Virus record (IMG/VR): IMGVR_UViG_3300022752_000055
Location: 8,127 to 72,126 of that record
DNA from: a virus
Direction: 5' to 3' (one strand)
Length of the DNA stretch: 64,000 nucleotides
Positions 11,457-59,986 of this stretch are shown piece after piece; within the stretch, counting starts at the first letter, position 1, and each line of letters opens with the position of its first letter. Under the pieces are notes generated by a model. It worked only from the letters and a program-made list of their open reading frames with translations. It was not told the DNA's origin and ran no database searches. A program made the position numbers and the translations under genes.

Positions 11457-11965
11457 TATATTCCGTATTTAAGTTCTTCTTTTGTTTTAACAGTACATAT
11501 TTTATTTTTTTTGTTATTTCCTGTAGAACACCAATCTTTAATTTGACCTGAGATTGTATTGACAACTTTATCCATAAATCCACCTGAAAACCATTCACCT
11601 TCAATTGCATCATAAATTGTTTCTTTACCAATTGTTGGATATGCTTTTAAAACTCCAATAGAATTAGGTAAAGATGTAAAAATTTTTGATGTAACATAAT
11701 CAGTATCTCTTCTTCCTATACCCTCAATAGTTTTATAAAAAGCTGCGCAACTTTTAGGGATATCAATTGTTGGGGTTCCGGGATTAATTGGAATGTTATT
11801 TGGATATTTCATAAATTGTTTTGCAATTTCATTAAAATATTTCATATCCTCATCTTGTTCTTGGATTAAAATTCTATTTTCATTTAAAGTTTTTGATGAG
11901 TCATAATTCATCATTAATTTAATTCTATCTATAGATTCTTCCGGATTATATTTGTCGTGTACCAT
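11456..11965 (-). CDS. hypothetical protein with leader
   Basis: ESIDRIKLMMNYDSSKTLNEN motif, similar to the 8999 gene. Confidence 0.75.
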   Translation of the reverse strand: MVHDKYNPEESIDRIKLMMNYDSSKTLNENRILIQEQDEDMKYFNEIAKQFMKYPNNIPINPGTPTIDIPKSCAAFYKTIEGIGRRDTDYVTSKIFTSLPNSIGVLKAYPTIGKETIYDAIEGEWFSGGFMDKVVNTISGQIKDWCSTGNNKKNKICTVKTKEELKYGI

Positions 11966-26144: not shown

Positions 26145-26879
26145 TTATGCCAACATTTCTGATGCATTTTTTATTTTTCCCGGTCTAATTGTTCTCATAG
26201 CGTAAACCATATTGTCTAATTCTTCGGGATTAGTAATTCCCATACTAACAGAATCATTAACTTTTTTTGCAAACTTTTTAAAATATCCAGGTCCATTCCA
26301 ACTTGCATACGCAAAATTAAATAATAATTTAGGGTTGTTTTCAACAATACTTCTTGCCTCTTTTGATAAGAAATTTTCAGCATTTTTCTTGTATTGTTCT
26401 TTCATAATTTTGCTAACAGAACTAATTAATTTATCTTTTAATTCTCCGCCAGTATAGTTATACGGCCATCTTCCATTTTTTTGTGCGTTATCTATCATCG
26501 ACCAAAACTCGGAACCACTATCTGATGTGTTAATTGTTCCCCCATGTTTTCTATCTATTCCAAACATGGTCTCACCGCTTTTACCCATGGCGGTAAAACT
26601 TGAAGGAGACATATTTTTTCCTGATGTGCTTTTTGCTCCCGTAATTTTAAATTCGGGATGATAATACCCACCTTCCAAATTATTAATAATTGTTTTTGTA
26701 ATTTCTTTAAATTTATCATCAACAATAGACCCGGTAACTTTTTTAGAAGATGTGGGTTCTACTGACTTTAATAAATCTTTATCAACTAGTTTGTCCGAGA
26801 AATCACCTGAAAAGGCTCCCATCAATCCTTTTAATAAATCTTCAAGTTGGTCTTCACTTATTATTACGTTTTTTTTCAT
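26145..26879 (-). CDS. leader-bearing GH108-like lysozyme
   Basis: VIISEDQL leader; LEGGYYHP..GETMFGI motif. Confidence 0.6.
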   Translation of the reverse strand: MKKNVIISEDQLEDLLKGLMGAFSGDFSDKLVDKDLLKSVEPTSSKKVTGSIVDDKFKEITKTIINNLEGGYYHPEFKITGAKSTSGKNMSPSSFTAMGKSGETMFGIDRKHGGTINTSDSGSEFWSMIDNAQKNGRWPYNYTGGELKDKLISSVSKIMKEQYKKNAENFLSKEARSIVENNPKLLFNFAYASWNGPGYFKKFAKKVNDSVSMGITNPEELDNMVYAMRTIRPGKIKNASEMLA

Positions 26880-26956
26880 ATACTTTGTTATTTTTTGATT
26901 GTCTCAATAATATAAATATAACACTAACCAAACATATTTATATAAAAAGAAAAACT

Positions 26957-28021
26957 ATTTCATCTGCAATTAAAATATTATCATTAGAGGGTGTTCCACC
27001 ATTTCAGGTTTATTCCTGTGATTACGCTTTAAATAATTGTCAACTTGTTGCAACATTAGAGAATCCGGTTCAAGCAATAAACGACATTATACTACCAAAT
27101 CTTTTTGATAATTCACCAAACATAATTGTTAAAATTATTTCCTTTGATGGGTGTGAGACATTCACATTATTAAATTGTGAGAATTTCCCAACACCAATGA
27201 CAATGATTGTTGAGAGTCCTGATTCGTCAAATACCATATTTGAATTACCGTTAGTTAATGATGGTGTTTATGATTTTGATGTTGATTGGGGTGATGGTAC
27301 ATCACAAAGAATCACTCAATGGGACGATGCAAATAAAGTTCATAATTATCCTGATAATGGTGAATATGAAATAAAAATATATATTAAAGAATTTACTGGT
27401 TGGAATTTTGCATACGCCGGGGTTCCTCAGGAGACAAAAAATAATCTAAAAAGTATTACAATAATTCCAAGTTTAGTTTTTACTGACATGGTAACCGCAT
27501 TCACCAATTGTGAAAATTTGATTAGTTTTAATGGTACTCCAACATTTAGTGGTTCTACAGACTTAACCGATTTTTTCGCCAATTGTTACAGTTTAGAATC
27601 TGTTAATGGTATTTGGGATTTTAGTGGGGTTGAGAGTATTTCCTCATTCTTTTTTAATTGTAATTCCTTAACCGGAGGAACAATTAACGAATGGGGGTTG
27701 ACAATGAATAATGTAAAATATGCATATAGTGTATTCGAAAATTGTTATTCATTTAATGGTGAATTAGATAAATGGAACATGAGTGGTGTGATATCAATGG
27801 GTACCATGTTTACCAATGCAGTATCATTTAATCAAGATATTGGAGGTTGGAATGTATCGGGAGTTACTGAAATGGATAGTATGTTCTACAATGCAACTTC
27901 ATTTAATCAAGACCTAAGCGGTTGGTGCGTTACAAACATACCAACCGCTCCAGTAGATTTTGATGGTGAGGCATTACTTTGGGTATTACCTAGACCGGTA
28001 TGGGGAACATGCCCCACATAA
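26957..28021 (+). CDS. PKD plus DUF285/BspA-type repeat protein
   Basis: VDWGDG; FNQDIGGWNVSGVT.M..MF..A.SFNQDLS.W repeats; start uncertain (ATT after TATTTAT). Confidence 0.75.
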   Translation: MSSAIKILSLEGVPPFQVYSCDYALNNCQLVATLENPVQAINDIILPNLFDNSPNIIVKIISFDGCETFTLLNCENFPTPMTMIVESPDSSNTIFELPLVNDGVYDFDVDWGDGTSQRITQWDDANKVHNYPDNGEYEIKIYIKEFTGWNFAYAGVPQETKNNLKSITIIPSLVFTDMVTAFTNCENLISFNGTPTFSGSTDLTDFFANCYSLESVNGIWDFSGVESISSFFFNCNSLTGGTINEWGLTMNNVKYAYSVFENCYSFNGELDKWNMSGVISMGTMFTNAVSFNQDIGGWNVSGVTEMDSMFYNATSFNQDLSGWCVTNIPTAPVDFDGEALLWVLPRPVWGTCPT

Positions 28022-28440: not shown

Positions 28441-28554
28441 TTATTTATGAGTTAAAATTTCATATATAACTTGAATGGTTATACCAAATAATACGGACGC
28501 AACCGCAAATATTACAAAATATATCAATCCAATATCCCAATTATTTTTTTTCAT
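28441..28554 (-). CDS. 37-aa membrane peptide
   Basis: MKKNNWDIGLIYFVIFAVASVLFGITIQVIYEILTHK. Confidence 0.45.
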   Translation of the reverse strand: MKKNNWDIGLIYFVIFAVASVLFGITIQVIYEILTHK

Positions 28555-28568
28555 TTTTATTAAATTTT

Positions 28569-29153
28569 TTATTTTATCACGAAAAATGATGTAGGTGTCA
28601 CTTCCCCCAAGTTTATTTGCTCTTGTATCCAATCAAAAGAGGCACTTACAACTTGACGAGGTGTTATTTCCTCCGATTTTAATTGTTCTTCCACCACTTT
28701 TAGATGATAAGTACTTAAAGTCACATTAGGTTTTATTTCCACATATTTTACCGAGTCTAACTTTCTCCAACTAGATGGTGGTGCTATGGCACATCTTGGT
28801 GTTACTTCCTCCTTTTCTAAATCACGCCAAATTTGTGTTGGTATTGACTCTTTTGGTGTTATTTCCTCCCGATTTAATCTTAGCTCCGCCAATTGGCAAA
28901 TGAGATTCACATCTTTAACGGGTTTTATTTCCACCGATTTTAATTCTTCTTGCACCCTCATCAATTGATTTGTAATACTGGTATGTGGTATAACTTCCTC
29001 TGATTTTAATTGTTTTTCCATAAATGGAAGGTAGTTTCTTCCAGCGTCCAAAGGTGTAACTTCCTCCGATTTTAATTCTTCTTCCACAACCACAAATGAA
29101 AGTGGTTTATCCCATTTAGGTGTCACTTCCCCCGATTTTATTTGTTGTTCCAT
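28569..29153 (-). CDS. ORF formed by the repeat-spacer array (22-aa period)
   Basis: 194 open codons across 9 repeats; in frame with 29154..29453 and separated from it by a single TAG. Confidence 0.5.
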   Translation of the reverse strand: MEQQIKSGEVTPKWDKPLSFVVVEEELKSEEVTPLDAGRNYLPFMEKQLKSEEVIPHTSITNQLMRVQEELKSVEIKPVKDVNLICQLAELRLNREEITPKESIPTQIWRDLEKEEVTPRCAIAPPSSWRKLDSVKYVEIKPNVTLSTYHLKVVEEQLKSEEITPRQVVSASFDWIQEQINLGEVTPTSFFVIK

Positions 29154-29220
29154 CTATGAGTCTGAAGTGAAACCATTAGCAATAGGTGTCACTTCCCCCG
29201 ATTTTATTTGTTGTTCCATC
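28594..29220 (-). CRISPR. degenerate CRISPR-like array: 10 repeats of about 36 nt, mostly 30-nt spacers, in frame with the upstream gene
   Basis: Repeat GATGGAACAACAAATAAAATCGGGGGAAGTGACACC (minus strand). Plus-strand starts 29185, 29119, 29053, 28987, 28921, 28855, 28798, 28729, 28660, 28594. Spacers are mutually unrelated; no cas genes in the window. Confidence 0.7.
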
Positions 29221-29453
29221 CATTCTTTTATAAGTTGTTGGGTTTCTTCGTAATCATAGGAAAACATATCGGAGATGTCAGTCCAAACTGAATATAAAAC
29301 CCATAATGTTCCGGACTTTTCCAATTCTAATATTACCTTATCATTCTTTTTAAAAAAAATAGAGTCAGGATAAAATTTTGATTTAACCGAATACATATTT
29401 TCAAACAAATAATTCAAAAACTTAAACTCACTTTTTCTTATTTTATCTTTCAT
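29154..29453 (-). CDS. array-associated protein; paralog of 47274..47606
   Basis: F.(F/Y)L.YLFE.M..IF.KKND..W.DIS.MFS.DY.ETQ.L..EW is shared; TATATTTG promoter at 29473-29480. Confidence 0.85.
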   Translation of the reverse strand: MKDKIRKSEFKFLNYLFENMYSVKSKFYPDSIFFKKNDKVILELEKSGTLWVLYSVWTDISDMFSYDYEETQQLIKEWMEQQIKSGEVTPIANGFTSDS

Positions 29454-29602
29454 TTTTTTTAATTAACGAATACAAATATAATAATAAATCCCATAACAAT
29501 CAAAATAATATTACATTATGTTTAACCATTCTATTAAAGGTTCCGCGCTGATAGTATCTTCCGTCATTATAATTACCATTATCTTTCAACCACCTTAAAA
29601 CA

Positions 29603-47273: not shown

Positions 47274-47606
47274 ATGAAATATATTATAACAGAAAATAGT
47301 TTAAGGAGAGTTCAGTTTAAGTATTTGGATTACTTATTTGAGGGTATGCATGTAATTAAAATGCTTTCACCGGATGATAATATATTTTCAGGGCCTAATG
47401 CAATATTTTGGAAAAAAAATGATAGTATATTATTGGTACTTAGAATTCGCGAAAAAAATAAATTAGAAGTTACATATCCAATTTGGGAAGATATATCCAA
47501 TATGTTTTCATTGGATTATTATGAAACTCAGGAACTTATGGAAGAATGGGCGGAACAACGTTTGGGGGTGGGAAAAGTCAAAGCCGCATCGGTTGATTTT
47601 TTTTAA
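47274..47606 (+). CDS. leader-bearing paralog of the array-associated gene
   Basis: MKYIITENSL; WEDISNMFSLDYYETQELMEEWAEQ. Confidence 0.85.
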   Translation: MKYIITENSLRRVQFKYLDYLFEGMHVIKMLSPDDNIFSGPNAIFWKKNDSILLVLRIREKNKLEVTYPIWEDISNMFSLDYYETQELMEEWAEQRLGVGKVKAASVDFF

Positions 47607-52409: not shown

Positions 52410-52678
52410 CTTTTATAAATATCAAAAGATTAACTTATGGTTAAAATAAAATAATATACACCATCTACCTACCTTAAAGATATTTATAATATAGATAAAT
52501 AGTGATGAAAATAGGTATATAATTTTTACATTAAACTATCCATATGAAAGTATTAAAAACTATAAAAAACTTCTTTGATGGTCTATTATTTTCTAAGGAG
52601 CATATTGAATATGAAATAATGAAGAGATTTCTAAATGGGAAATAATATCACTAAAAATTTGTACTACGCGGCATTCTG

Positions 52679-52751
52679 CACGCACGTGAGGACTCGAACC
52701 TACCATCTTCGGTTTTGGAGACCGATGTTCTACCAATTGAACTACGCACGC
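52679..52751 (-). tRNA. trnW: tRNA-Trp(CCA)
   Basis: Anticodon arm TCGGT-CTCCAAA-ACCGA; D arm GTTC/GAAC; TTCGAGT loop; T stem imperfect. Confidence 0.85.
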
Positions 52752-54152: not shown

Positions 54153-54269
54153 ATTATTTAGTTTTTAGTCGTTATTTACAATGTTATCAAAAACTTTTCT
54201 CACACCCCACTTCACTATCTCCCAAATTATTATTGTTAGTATTATTATCTTCATAAAAAAATATTTTTG

Positions 54270-54343
54270 TGGACTCACTTGGGCTCGAACCAAGGACTTC
54301 AAAATTATGAGTTTTGCACTCTTACCTACTGAGTTATGAGTCC
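54270..54343 (-). tRNA. tRNA with CAT anticodon (Met or Ile2)
   Basis: GGACTCA/TGAGTCC acceptor; CAAAA-CTCATAA-TTTTG; CTTGG-TTCGAGC-CCAAG. Confidence 0.9.
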
Positions 54344-54874: not shown

Positions 54875-54888
54875 ATTGTTTTTTTTAG

Positions 54889-54960
54889 TAGTCCGGAGAG
54901 GAATCGAACCTCTATATACAGATTAGAAATCTGTCATTCTATCCGTTGAATTACCAGACC
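54889..54960 (-). tRNA. trnR: tRNA-Arg(TCT)
   Basis: GGTCTGG/CCGGACT acceptor; ACAGA-TTTCTAA-TCTGT; AGAGG-TTCGATT-CCTCT; TTTG-N19-TATATTTG promoter upstream. Confidence 0.9.
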
Positions 54961-58636: not shown

Positions 58637-59986
58637 ATGAAAGAACTAATAAAACTTTTAATTCTAACAATTTTCTTAACAGGAAATTTAAACGCTCAGG
58701 TAACAAATTTGGGCGAAAACGTAAACTCAATATATGATGAGATAAGACCGCTCGTATCTGCGGATGGAAAGACCTTATTCTTTATTGTTGAGGGGAATCC
58801 ATTAAACCCATATAAAGACGGTCAAGACGTTTGGTTTAGTGAAAAAACTGATTCCGGAAAATGGGGAAAATCGGTGAGACTCCCAAACAATATAAATAGG
58901 GATAGATACAACGCCATATTTTGGTGTTCTCAAAATGGCGATAAATTATTAATTAAAGGTAATTATGATGCCCTAAATGGAAAAATAAAGAGAGGATTTT
59001 CAATGATTTATAAAACCAACAATGGTTGGTCTAAACCAAAACCTTTAATTATAAATGATTATTCTCAAATTTCAAAAGGAGAATATTGTGGCGTTACATT
59101 ATCTCCGGATGAGAAAGTAATGATTTTATATTTTTCAAATGAAAAAAATGATGTCTACAATGATTTATGGGTTAGTTTTTTAGACACAACAAAAATGGTT
59201 TATTCGACACCCGTTAAATTATCAATTAGCGAAGATGATTGTGATGAGATTAGTCCTTATATCGCGCAAGATGGTAAAACACTATACTACTCAACAAATA
59301 ATTTAAATGGTTTAGGTAAATATGATATTTGGATGACTAGAAGATTAGACGATACTTGGTTGGAGTGGTCGACACCCGTAAACATTGACACTCCATTTAA
59401 TGGCCCTCAATGGGATGCATATCTATCAATTAGTAATGATAGAAAAACCGCATACTTTTCACGTTCAACCGGAAAAAACATAGACATTTATAGTGATACA
59501 TTAAAATTTGAATTTAGACCGGAAGAAACAAAAGAAGAATACATAACATCTATTAAAGATACAACGTTTATTCACGACACAATAATAGTTACAAATATTG
59601 AACCGTGTGATGAAATTGATACAATGAGTAACGAACAATTAATAAGAGAAATTGAAAGAACTAAGATATTATTTGATTTTGGAAACTCAGCACTAAGAAG
59701 TGATGCTTATAAAAAATTAGATTATGTTGTTAGATTATTAAATAAAAATCCTAATATGTTTATTGAATTAAACGGTCACTCCGATGCAATCGGTAACCCT
59801 GAAAGGAATTTAAAACAATCAAAACAGAGAGCATTGTCCGCAAAAGAATATCTTATTTCAAGAGGTATTGATAATAGTAGAATGACTGCAAAAGGTTATT
59901 CAAATACTAAACCAATCGTAGATAATATGAGTGAAGAAGGTAGACAATTAAATAGAAGAGTAGACATTAACGTTTTAACAAAATAA
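58637..59986 (+). CDS. PD40 beta-propeller plus OmpA-like peptidoglycan-binding protein (PorE-like architecture)
   Basis: Signal peptide; P..S.DGKTL repeats; FDFG..GHSD..N..S..RA..LNRRV. Confidence 0.85.
   Translation: MKELIKLLILTIFLTGNLNAQVTNLGENVNSIYDEIRPLVSADGKTLFFIVEGNPLNPYKDGQDVWFSEKTDSGKWGKSVRLPNNINRDRYNAIFWCSQNGDKLLIKGNYDALNGKIKRGFSMIYKTNNGWSKPKPLIINDYSQISKGEYCGVTLSPDEKVMILYFSNEKNDVYNDLWVSFLDTTKMVYSTPVKLSISEDDCDEISPYIAQDGKTLYYSTNNLNGLGKYDIWMTRRLDDTWLEWSTPVNIDTPFNGPQWDAYLSISNDRKTAYFSRSTGKNIDIYSDTLKFEFRPEETKEEYITSIKDTTFIHDTIIVTNIEPCDEIDTMSNEQLIREIERTKILFDFGNSALRSDAYKKLDYVVRLLNKNPNMFIELNGHSDAIGNPERNLKQSKQRALSAKEYLISRGIDNSRMTAKGYSNTKPIVDNMSEEGRQLNRRVDINVLTK

What the first reader, a model, noticed from the sequence alone, without database searches (positions are those of the whole stretch)
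28569..29453. Translated CRISPR-like array growing out of the 3' end of a phage gene
Seen: ten repeats of about 36 nt (minus strand GATGGAACAACAAATAAAATCGGGGGAAGTGACACC) with periods 66,66,66,66,66,57,69,69,66 nt and mutually unrelated spacers, mostly 30 nt. The two gene-proximal repeats (29185, 29119) are identical and the others are diverged, which is the polarity expected from leader-end insertion. Here the 'leader' is the CDS 29154..29453. Repeat 1 encodes its C-terminal MEQQIKSGEVTP and spacer 1 supplies its last residues. Every length change is a multiple of 3, repeat substitutions are largely conservative at protein level, and the array has no stop over 194 codons. Known: 36-nt repeats with GTTG...CAAC ends and 30-nt spacers typify Bacteroidota type VI-B arrays, which can acquire spacers via Cas1-Cas2 supplied in trans; some copies here have GGTG...CACC ends. 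Inference: the phage may exploit host Cas1-Cas2 integration to insert 10-codon foreign segments and rewrite a protein C-terminus. Alternatively it is a decoy or mini-array. No cas gene lies in the window.
Basis: partly seen in the sequence, partly recalled or inferred. Interest (0 to 1): 0.92.

Follow-up and report, generated by a model that had tools for sequence, protein, structure and literature searches.

The report
Translated CRISPR-shaped array in phage gene
A small gene of a freshwater jumbo phage ends in a protein-coding stretch built like a CRISPR array, and its relatives show that new 30-base pieces keep being added beside a duplicated 36-base repeat, by a mechanism not yet identified.

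Summary
On the minus strand, a 99-aa gene (29453..29154) runs in frame, across one TAG, into a 194-codon open frame. Together they hold ten 36-nt repeats and mostly 30-nt unrelated spacers.

Relatives from lake metagenomes show the pattern again and again. The repeat next to the folded N-domain is duplicated exactly around a novel 30-nt (10-aa) segment. Distal units are old, shared between phages, reshuffled, and conserved as peptides. The only in-frame stops lie in the newest spacers.

The same 12+10-aa design, with at least 14 different repeat sequences, recurs across a phage-only superfamily (470 representatives).

The geometry matches Flavobacterium type II-C/VI-B adaptation: 36-bp duplication, 30-bp insert, growth at the gene-proximal end, and a G(G/T)TGT end far from the gene. 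However:
- no cas1, cas2, cas9 or reverse transcriptase gene was found in five phage records;
- no host array with this repeat was found;
- no protospacer was found.

Best reading: a translated cassette tail that grows by CRISPR-adaptation-like insertion. A host Cas1-Cas2 is the favoured enzyme but is unproven. The scan's other notes on this stretch (e1-6187296, e1-6185699) are first-reader notes on this same DNA, not on other DNA.

The parts
29199..29453 (-). Folded N-domain (residues 1-85) of the 99-aa protein; it plays the part of the 'leader'
   Evidence: ORF. AlphaFold2 with 22 homologs gives mean pLDDT 86: helix 2-16, four strands, helices 54-64 and 68-85. No solved fold matched. The only matches are uncharacterised phage proteins. 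No Pfam or PHROG family.
29473..29480 (-). TATATTTG (TAnnTTTG) about 19 nt before the start codon; possible Bacteroidota-type promoter element
   Evidence: The motif is not enriched in the window overall (112 found, 111 expected), so this is only a hint.
29185..29220 (-). Repeat 1 (36 nt), encoding MEQQIKSGEVTP; its first 7 residues end the last helix of the N-domain
29155..29184 (-). Spacer 1 (30 nt, IANGFTSDS); its last TA plus the G of repeat 2 makes the TAG stop
   Evidence: No look-alike in 78 other arrays. No exact match in IMG/VR. Present in four runs.
29119..29154 (-). Repeat 2, 36/36 identical to repeat 1; holds the ATG of the 194-aa ORF
29089..29118 (-). Spacer 2 (KWDKPLSFVV), found only in this phage
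28594..29088 (-). Repeats 3-10 and spacers 3-9, the older units. Seven of them (LDAGRNYLPF, HTSITNQLMR, VKDVNLICQL, KESIPTQIWRD, RCAIAPPSSWRK, NVTLSTYHLKV, RQVVSASFDW) are shared with other phages
   Evidence: The HTSITNQLMR spacer is 30/30 nt identical in four phages (WIN, L005, L025, L028). In the LDAG spacer, 6 of 7 variable sites are third codon positions.
28569..28593 (-). Terminal tail TSFFVIK and stop codon, shared by many relatives
28441..28557 (-). 38-aa hydrophobic ORF 12 nt after the array; also follows the array in relatives
   Evidence: the same frame-shifted peptide is seen after the arrays. No family match.
47274..47606 (+). Paralog of the N-domain gene (45% identity) with one repeat-like motif and a short tail, no array

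Best explanation
The locus encodes a small folded phage protein. Its C-terminal tail is a string of 22-residue units, each made of a 12-residue conserved linker (the 'repeat') and a 10-residue cassette (the 'spacer').

The tail is translated and its old cassettes are kept by selection. Its DNA, however, grows the way a CRISPR array grows: a 36-nt repeat, usually the one next to the N-domain, is duplicated exactly around a new, unrelated segment of about 30 nt.

New segments are not chosen for coding. Those with stops, or of 29 nt, truncate the protein. Those that stay open can persist, drift, be lost or be reshuffled by recombination between repeats.

What is shown: the anatomy, translation and selection, the polarity, repeat duplication with novel inserts, and the spread across a superfamily.

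What is inferred: the enzyme. The outcome (a fixed 36-bp target duplication, an insert of about 30 bp, and a preference for the end next to a conserved flank) is what a Cas1-Cas2 integrase produces. The dimensions and the repeat's far end fit the II-C/VI-B systems of Flavobacteria. I therefore favour a host Cas1-Cas2 using the gene's 3' end as a pseudo leader-repeat.

My odds: about 0.8 that a repeat-duplicating insertion process exists, and about 0.4-0.45 that Cas1-Cas2 is the agent.

The protein's function is unknown. The tail models as flexible short helices, each imitating the end of the N-domain's last helix.
For: 1. Recent events at DNA level.
- L021 has 7 repeats identical over exactly 36 nt, apart from one synonymous A>G. 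They enclose 6 unique 30-nt spacers, followed by the shared LDAG unit with a diverged repeat.
- L020 has 2 identical repeats plus a third with 3 changes.
- L023 has 35/36 identity; the window has 36/36.
- The repeat/spacer borders are sharp and out of codon register. A spacer starts at the third base of the Pro codon.

2. Association. Flanking repeats are at least 11/12 aa identical for 15 of 89 spacers with no look-alike elsewhere, 3 of 60 rare spacers and 1 of 340 common ones. All such spacers are 10 aa long. Ten arrays have one at position 1.

3. Polarity. The share of spacers with no look-alike in any of the other 78 non-redundant arrays is 27/79 at position 1, 16/70, 17/65, 7/63, 6/57, 8/49, 3/41 and 0/29 at position 8.

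4. Inserts are not pre-selected for coding.
- The only real in-frame stops among 33 distinct spacers are WIN 1, L020 1 and L020 2, all proximal.
- The coding frame has 3 of 33 spacers with stops, against 48% for random phage 30-mers and 36-70% in the other five frames.
- In tandem paralogs, 29-nt spacers throw the next repeat out of frame, where it reads WNNI-stop.

5. Translation and selection.
- In the LDAG cassette, 6 of 7 variable sites are third positions.
- The L012 repeats differ only at synonymous sites while VESALNCGVTTT is kept four times.
- All length changes are multiples of 3.

6. Breadth.
- Of 142 further representatives, each at most 50% identical to the others, 38 have a self-match at 19-25 aa. 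In 37 of these the distance is exactly 22.
- 27 have a 12-mer at least 8/12 identical to the one 22 aa downstream (10 of them 12/12). The following 10-mers share 0.72 of 10 residues.
- There are 14 different repeat types.
- L012 (N-domain 32% identical) has another repeat in the same 36+30 register.

7. Fit to a known integrase (PMC8092290, passages). In F. columnare the repeats are 36 bp, the end far from the leader reads 5'-GTTGT-3', base 36 lies next to the leader, new spacers are 28-32 bp and mostly 30, and there is a ruler mechanism. Read on the opposite strand, the phage repeat begins GGTGT (window type) or GTTGT (L012 type) at the end far from the gene.

8. Precedents. Off-target integration can spawn arrays (Nivala 2018, seen only as cited in 10.1101/148544). 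Spacers can also insert inside arrays (PMC7999890, abstract start only).

9. Weak hints of a Bacteroidota host. A PD40+OmpA protein has its best partial matches to CHU_0125 and PorE families. A TAnnTTTG motif lies before the gene.
Against: - No Cas1, Cas2 or Cas9 family match over cut-off, and no reverse transcriptase, in five related phage records, one of them rated 100% complete. The enzyme would have to be the host's, and the host is unknown.
- A consensus of the phage repeats gave only 7 single chance hits in ordinary genes, and no array, in one genome for each of 185,579 species.
- No Rfam CRISPR repeat family matched, even at E up to 10.
- No source was found for any spacer. This covers the held DNA, the complete 309-kb genome for its own six spacers, cultured phages, IMG/VR for four spacers searched exactly, and 401 Bacteroidota genomes. 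In those genomes a control phage stretch scored more hits than the array.
- Repeat sequences differ greatly between lineages (14 types). An integrase that reads leader and repeat sequence would have to tolerate this, or each host's integrase would have to fit its own phage.
- The array sits at the same codon phase in lineages only 32% identical, and most cassettes are conserved peptides. A long-standing protein function, not accidents of host immunity, therefore shapes most of it.
- Contigs of four runs showed no length polymorphism, though contigs are poor at showing this.
- The GC of recent spacers (36.9%) does not differ significantly from stop-free phage 30-mers (32.4%, p=0.085).
- The G(G/T)TGT match is 5 bases, was noticed after the fact, and also encodes Thr-Pro or Thr-Thr.
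Confidence: 0.5

Rival explanations
1. A machinery of the phage itself, of an unknown kind, makes the staggered 36-nt cut and inserts the short segment. It would be a self-contained cassette-writing system that belongs to this gene family.
For: - The design is kept in the same codon phase across a phage-only superfamily with 14 different repeat types. That is easier to explain if the agent co-evolves with the gene.
- Several paralogs per genome carry arrays.
- No host array with the repeat was found.
Against: - No candidate enzyme was found. Cas1, Cas2, Cas9 and reverse transcriptase families are absent from five records.
- The genes next to the array have no family match and are not conserved between loci.
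- No non-Cas enzyme is known to give a fixed 36-bp duplication with a 30-bp insert (my own knowledge).
- Only four families were searched, so this absence is weak evidence.
Confidence: 0.25
2. It is an ordinary tandem-repeat protein. Cassettes move between arrays and paralogs by homologous recombination in the repeats, gene conversion keeps neighbouring repeats alike, and the 'novel' spacers come from a large unsampled pool or from fast divergence under diversifying selection.
For: - Most cassettes are a shared vocabulary whose order varies.
- Internal units are lost and reshuffled.
- Genomes hold many paralogs, including tandem ones with a motif, a tail and a partial repeat.
- The protein logic is coherent: each helix is the end of a cassette plus 7 repeat residues.
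- No spacer has an external source.
Against: - Recombination in the repeats would bring in donor repeat sequence. Yet 13 unique spacers lie between repeats that are 12/12 identical (36/36 nt where DNA is held), while neighbouring repeats normally share only 5-6 of 12 residues.
- In L021 the spacers are at random-level identity while 7 repeats carry one change in 252 nt. Uniform mutation cannot do this.
- Stop-bearing 30-nt spacers, and 29-nt spacers, are not what selection on a protein repeat yields.
- The borders lie off the codon register.
Confidence: 0.15
3. It is a working RNA element: a phage mini-CRISPR array or repeat decoy whose transcripts are processed and loaded into host Cas proteins, with translation being incidental.
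For: - Phage mini-arrays and solitary repeat units that mimic host repeats are known (PMC6858448 and PMC10651486, search listing and abstract starts only).
- The HTSITNQLMR spacer is 30/30 nt identical in phages whose N-domains are only 72-77% identical to the window's.
Against: - The repeats diverge like codons, with synonymous changes and conservative replacements.
- No hairpin beyond shuffled controls.
- No Rfam CRISPR repeat family and no host array with the repeat.
- The coding frame is kept free of stops and cassettes vary at third positions.
- No target was found for any spacer.
Confidence: 0.05
4. Reading of function only: the protein is a multi-core precursor of ribosomal peptides. 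The N-domain would be the leader, the repeats the recognition sequences, and the variable 10-mers the cores to be cut out.
For: - The layout is a conserved flank plus hypervariable short cores repeated in one ORF.
- It resembles cyanobactin-type precursors (recalled, from no call).
- Two weak Foldseek rows were to proteins that bind or process such peptides (TbiB1 with a leader peptide, and a sactipeptide enzyme; E 0.49).
Against: - The N-domain is a well-folded 85-residue domain, not a leader peptide.
- The neighbouring genes carry no recognisable protease or modifying enzyme.
- The Foldseek rows are far from significant.
- This reading does not explain repeat duplication with novel inserts.
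Confidence: 0.05

Closest known systems
CRISPR arrays and Cas1-Cas2 adaptation, especially type II-C / VI-B of Flavobacterium columnare (PMC8092290, passages read)
   Same: - 36-nt repeat and mostly 30-nt unrelated spacers.
- Exact duplication of the repeat at each gain.
- Gains mainly at the end next to a conserved flank.
- Older units shared between strains and lost internally.
- Occasional 29-nt spacers.
- G(G/T)TGT at the repeat end far from the flank.
   Different: - The array is an open reading frame under peptide-level selection.
- The 'leader' is the coding sequence of a folded domain.
- Distal repeats diverge like codons.
- No cas genes, no repeat hairpin, no known repeat family, and no protospacers found.
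- At least 14 repeat types within one protein superfamily.
Neo-CRISPR arrays from off-target spacer integration (Nivala et al. 2018, seen only as cited in 10.1101/148544) and ectopic acquisition inside arrays (PMC7999890, abstract start only)
   Same: A non-CRISPR sequence of repeat length is duplicated around an integrated spacer and can then take further spacers. A few events here lie inside the array (P0055 position 3, P0028 position 6).
   Different: Those cases are in bacterial chromosomes with over-expressed or native Cas1-Cas2. Here the target is a phage gene, the events recur over a whole superfamily, and the products are translated.
Virus-borne mini-CRISPR arrays and solitary repeat units / RNA anti-CRISPRs (PMC6858448, PMC10651486; listing and abstract starts only)
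   Same: Repeat-spacer units in viral genomes without cas genes nearby.
   Different: Those repeats copy the host's CRISPR repeat and act as RNA. Here no host repeat matches and the units are codons.
Tandem-repeat proteins that array finders miscall as CRISPR (my own knowledge, from no call)
   Same: A periodic conserved part plus a variable part inside an ORF, with unit loss and shuffling by recombination.
   Different: Ordinary repeat expansion copies the whole unit. Here only the 36-nt part is copied and the 30-nt part is new, sometimes with stops.

Membership tests
CRISPR array | Three or more near-identical direct repeats of 23-50 nt separated by unique spacers of similar length | tested here: met
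   The window has ten 36-nt repeats, two identical and the rest differing at 6-13 or more of 36 positions, with mostly 30-nt spacers. L021 has 7 identical repeats. Spacer identity is at the level of shuffled sequence.
CRISPR array | Non-coding: repeats and spacers are not under codon-level selection | tested here: not met
   The coding frame is depleted of stops (3 of 33 against 48% expected). Length changes are multiples of 3. Variation is synonymous in the L012 repeats and at third positions in the LDAG spacer.
CRISPR array | Polarised gain of units with duplication of the leader-proximal repeat | tested here: met
   This is inferred from comparing genomes, not observed as it happens.
CRISPR array | cas genes, at least cas1-cas2, in the same genome or shown to act in trans | tested here: not met
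   PF01867, PF09827 and TIGR01865 have no match over cut-off in G000-G004. The host is unknown, so action in trans could not be tested.
CRISPR array | Repeat belongs to a known CRISPR repeat family or to a host array | tested here: not met
   Rfam gave no CRISPR repeat family at E up to 10. The consensus scan of 185,579 species' genomes gave 7 single chance hits and no array. A host outside that collection is not excluded.
CRISPR array | Spacers match foreign DNA (protospacers), with a shared flanking motif | tested here: inconclusive
   No match. The 27/30 hits in Bacteroidota genomes are at the level of a control. The searches were exact or small, so absence is weak.
crRNA-producing repeat (type VI-B-like) | Repeat RNA folds into a stable hairpin with paired ends | tested here: not met
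   Minimum free energies were -0.4 to -5.2 kcal/mol. The two best folds were matched or beaten by 11 and 12 of 200 shuffles, and the other four by 88 to 189 of 200. For the window repeat, the coordinates given were shifted by two bases.
Diversity-generating retroelement target | Reverse transcriptase and a template repeat; variable sites only where the template has adenine | tested here: not met
   No RVT_1 match in five records. The spacers share no skeleton with each other.
Ordinary tandem-repeat protein | New units arise as copies of whole existing units | tested here: not met
   Recent units copy only the 36-nt part. The 30-nt part has no look-alike.

The most novel reading that the evidence does not exclude
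A whole superfamily of phage proteins has its C-terminal tails written by a CRISPR-adaptation-type integrase. Short pieces of DNA are captured and inserted, with repeat duplication, into a coding sequence, so that spacer acquisition creates and diversifies protein sequence. A variant of this reading is that the many gene-borne pseudo leader-repeat sites on replicating phage DNA act as a sink that diverts the host's adaptation complex from its own array.
Probability: 0.4. Interest if true: 0.95.

Novelty: new variant of a known kind. Interest (0 to 1): 0.87.

Why it matters
If a repeat-duplicating integrase writes these tails, spacer acquisition has a second outcome besides immunity. It would be a natural generator of new peptide cassettes in phage proteins, with visible steps from random insert (some with stops) to conserved cassette.

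That would make three questions directly testable:
- how new coding sequence arises;
- how far Cas1-Cas2 can act outside CRISPR loci and on phage DNA;
- whether phages exploit or blunt host adaptation.

If the host integrase is not involved, an unknown enzyme with the same chemistry exists in jumbo phages. That would be of interest both for biology and as a DNA-writing tool.

Either way, the arrays give a strain-level record of phage lineages in lakes, much as CRISPR typing does for bacteria.

Tried and rejected
Searches that found nothing, or nothing usable:
- Tandem Repeats Finder found nothing in the array.
- Pfam and PHROGs: no family for the two ORFs or their neighbours.
- The search for related loci with the single proteins found no relative in IMG/VR. 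The alignment query did find relatives.
- blastn of the array against cultured phages gave two chance hits in microvirus capsid genes. tblastn of the 1142-aa protein gave none.
- Foldseek against PDB had no match at E <= 0.001. The protein atlas gave only unnamed viral clusters below 0.9.
- The sigma-70 promoter and terminator scan showed nothing notable.
- TAnnTTTG is not enriched in the window.
- A weak Cas1 hit in G004 (13 bits) is an acidic 586-aa ORF, not Cas1. A 27-bit Cas9 hit is an HNH stretch in a 173-aa ORF.

Sequencing runs:
- No RNA holder was listed, so nothing can be said on expression.
- Logan contigs break at the identical repeats and showed no array-length variant. Parts without cover prove nothing.

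Spacer hits in Bacteroidota:
- Two L021 spacers had 27/30 matches in Bacteroidota genomes.
- I rejected them because a control stretch of the same phage locus hit more genomes and scored higher (94 against 40 of 401 genomes; 45.5 against 43.7 bits). Neither had the TTTANNNNN flank.

Ideas considered and rejected:
- TAG recoding or read-through: other genes use ordinary stops, and stop-bearing spacers in L020 include TAA, TAG and TGA.
- Assembly chimeras: rejected and on the same arrays turning up in independent assemblies (L025/L027, L028/L029).

Not done:
- Supplementary files of papers were not asked for. Figures S5 and S6 of PMC8092290 (repeat and leader alignments of nine species) could bear on the repeat-end motif.
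Full report
WHAT IS THERE.
The window is part of a 72-kb IMG/VR virus record that CheckV rates 25% complete. Its GC is 30.5% and it has no relative among cultured phages. Related records reach 309 kb, so this is a fragment of a jumbo phage. It comes from lake water.

On the minus strand, ORF 29453..29154 (99 aa) is followed in the same frame by ORF 29153..28569 (194 aa), with only a TAG between them. A profile search finds ten 36-nt repeats at periods 66, 66, 66, 66, 66, 57, 69, 69, 66. Repeats 1 and 2 are identical. The spacers are 30 nt, or differ from 30 by multiples of 3.

THE PROTEIN SIDE.
The first 85 residues fold with confidence: mean pLDDT 86, with helix, four strands and two helices. 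The first seven residues of repeat 1 are the end of the last helix.

There is no Pfam or PHROG family and no solved fold. The only structural matches are uncharacterised proteins of uncultured phages.

The 194-aa array models poorly (pLDDT 58, pTM 0.19). It appears as separate short helices, each made of the end of a spacer plus the start of a repeat. This suggests a flexible tail and not a compact repeat fold.

The tail is under selection as protein:
- Only 3 of 33 distinct spacers carry a real stop in the coding frame. Random phage 30-mers give 48%, and the other five frames give 36-70% (one of the four flagged was a parsing artefact).
- In the LDAG cassette, 6 of 7 variable sites are third codon positions.
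- In the distant L012 lineage, four repeats differ only at synonymous sites while the peptide is unchanged.

RELATIVES.
Searching with the 99-aa protein gave 20 proteins of similar length and 59 longer ones, up to 379 aa. All have the N-domain followed by a variable number of 12+10-aa units. An alignment query brought DNA of 13 viral and 16 metagenome loci.

Most cassettes form a recurrent vocabulary that is conserved as peptides, roughly collinear between phages, and subject to losses and swaps. To that extent this is a modular repeat protein.

THE UNUSUAL PART.
Many arrays begin with a unit that ordinary repeat evolution cannot make.
- L021 has seven repeats identical over exactly 36 nt, with one synonymous change. 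They enclose six 30-nt spacers that have no look-alike anywhere, followed by the shared LDAG unit with a diverged repeat.
- L020 has three such repeats, and its first two spacers contain TAA, TAG and TGA in frame. The array therefore continues beyond the end of the protein.
- The window itself has two identical repeats around a spacer whose junction creates the TAG.
- The borders are sharp and off the codon register.

Over 79 non-redundant arrays, flanking repeats are at least 11/12 identical for 15 of 89 spacers without a look-alike, 3 of 60 rare spacers and 1 of 340 common ones. Ten arrays have such a unit at position 1. All of these spacers are 10 aa long.

The share of spacers without a look-alike falls from 27/79 at position 1 to 0/29 at position 8.

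In tandem paralogs, a full repeat, a 29- or 30-nt spacer and a partial repeat precede the next gene. The 29-nt spacers put the partial repeat out of frame, where it reads WNNI-stop.

BREADTH.
A profile search of 1.84 billion representatives found 470 family members at E <= 0.001. The repeat-consensus scan of 185,579 species' genomes found no gene of this family in a cellular genome.
- Of the 142 new representatives listed, 38 have a self-match at 19-25 residues, and 37 of these are at exactly 22.
- 27 have a 12-mer at least 8/12 identical to the one 22 residues downstream, 10 of them 12/12. The following 10-mers share 0.72 of 10 residues.
- 14 repeat types differ from each other at 5 or more of 12 positions.
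- L012, whose N-domain is 32% identical, has a different repeat in the same 36+30 register and codon phase. Its complete genome holds at least four array-bearing paralogs.

Repeat duplication around a new 10-codon piece is therefore a property of the whole superfamily.

WHAT MAKES THE UNITS.
- Whole-unit duplication would copy the spacer.
- Recombination with other arrays would bring in foreign repeat sequence.
- Point mutation cannot randomise 30 nt while leaving 36 nt untouched.
- A retroelement is excluded: no reverse transcriptase was found and the spacers share no skeleton.

The outcome is that of an integrase that cuts both ends of a 36-bp site on opposite strands and joins in a piece of about 30 bp. 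This is what Cas1-Cas2 does.

The passages I read in PMC8092290 say that Flavobacterium columnare II-C and VI-B arrays have 36-bp repeats. They also say that the end far from the leader reads 5'-GTTGT-3', that base 36 lies next to the leader, that new spacers are 28-32 bp and mostly 30, and that VI-B takes spacers in trans. Read on the opposite strand, the phage repeat starts GGTGT (window type) or GTTGT (L012 type) at the end far from the gene.

Off-target integration that founds new arrays is in print (Nivala 2018, seen only as cited). So are insertions inside arrays (PMC7999890, abstract start). A Bacteroidota host is hinted at by a PD40+OmpA protein that resembles PorE/CHU_0125.

WHAT SPEAKS AGAINST Cas1-Cas2, OR LEAVES IT OPEN.
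- No cas1, cas2 or cas9 in five phage records, one of them complete.
- No host array with the repeat consensus in 185,579 species' genomes, and no Rfam repeat family.
- No source for any spacer. The two 27/30 hits in 401 Bacteroidota genomes are no better than a control stretch.
- The diversity of repeats within the family asks much of a sequence-reading integrase.
- The conserved phase and the conserved cassettes show that a protein function governs the locus over the long term.
- Contigs of four runs show the window's allele unchanged from 2011 to 2019, with no length variant.

VERDICT.
I put about 0.8 on a real repeat-duplicating insertion process that feeds a translated tail. Within that:
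- about 0.4-0.45 on a host Cas1-Cas2;
- about 0.25 on an unknown phage-borne agent;
- about 0.15 on an ordinary repeat protein with recombination from unsampled pools;
- about 0.05 on a working RNA array.

The function of the protein is unknown. A flexible multi-helix tail that imitates the N-domain's last helix is what the models suggest. That relatives start with the MK(I/Y)(L/I)ITE leader shared by many small genes of these phages is noted but not explained.

No paper describing translated arrays of this kind came up in four searches. These covered open-access papers and preprints only.

Noticed in passing
window 30339, 46469, 47274, 47619, 48228, 48615 (+) and four starts on the minus strand, given as reverse-strand positions 11592, 11927, 26928, 27918: Ten small genes of different bodies begin with the same peptide MK(Y/I)(I/L)I(T/N)E. 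Relatives of the array gene (P0017-P0019, L006, L031) begin with a similar MK(I/F)LITENQ leader, but the window's copy does not.
   Followed up: partly
L007:5001-5654; P0082 (760 aa), P0100 (588 aa): Some relatives are fusions of two to five N-domains in one open frame. In L007, the partial repeat after the first tail runs straight into the next N-domain.
   Followed up: no
window 28765-28854 and relatives: A cassette family xxAIAPPxxWRx, with its relatives xESIPxQxWRD, is always followed by a shortened repeat (unit of 57-60 nt). It often occurs twice per array and is often the last unit. It looks like an old, specially conserved unit.
   Followed up: partly
window 26750-28021 (+): 423-aa protein with DUF285 repeats (E 6e-31), a weak PKD-like stretch, and a PARCEL-repeat lipoprotein match. 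It may be a surface-binding protein of the phage.
   Followed up: no
window 58637-59986 (+): 449-aa protein with a PD40 repeat and a C-terminal OmpA domain. Its best partial NCBIfam matches are to CHU_0125 and PorE families of Bacteroidota, both below cut-off. This hints at the host.
   Followed up: partly
window 52678-52751, 54269-54343, 54888-54960 (-): Three tRNA genes: Trp-CCA, Met-CAT and Arg-TCT.
   Followed up: no
L020:3881 onward, L021:3911 onward, L028 (after the array): In three relatives the array and the small hydrophobic ORF are followed by a gene starting MENVNSCAYVAKIDEIKEIVGADKIEQARIGGWNCIIQKG. From memory this resembles the N-terminal part of some RNA ligases. It was not scanned, and it is not at this place in the window.
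   Followed up: no
G004:C1:238690-238887 (-) and L034:1231-2991 (-): The complete 309-kb relative holds a 173-aa ORF with an HNH stretch and a 586-aa very acidic ORF. These gave the weak Cas9 and Cas1 family hits. Neither is a Cas protein.
   Followed up: partly
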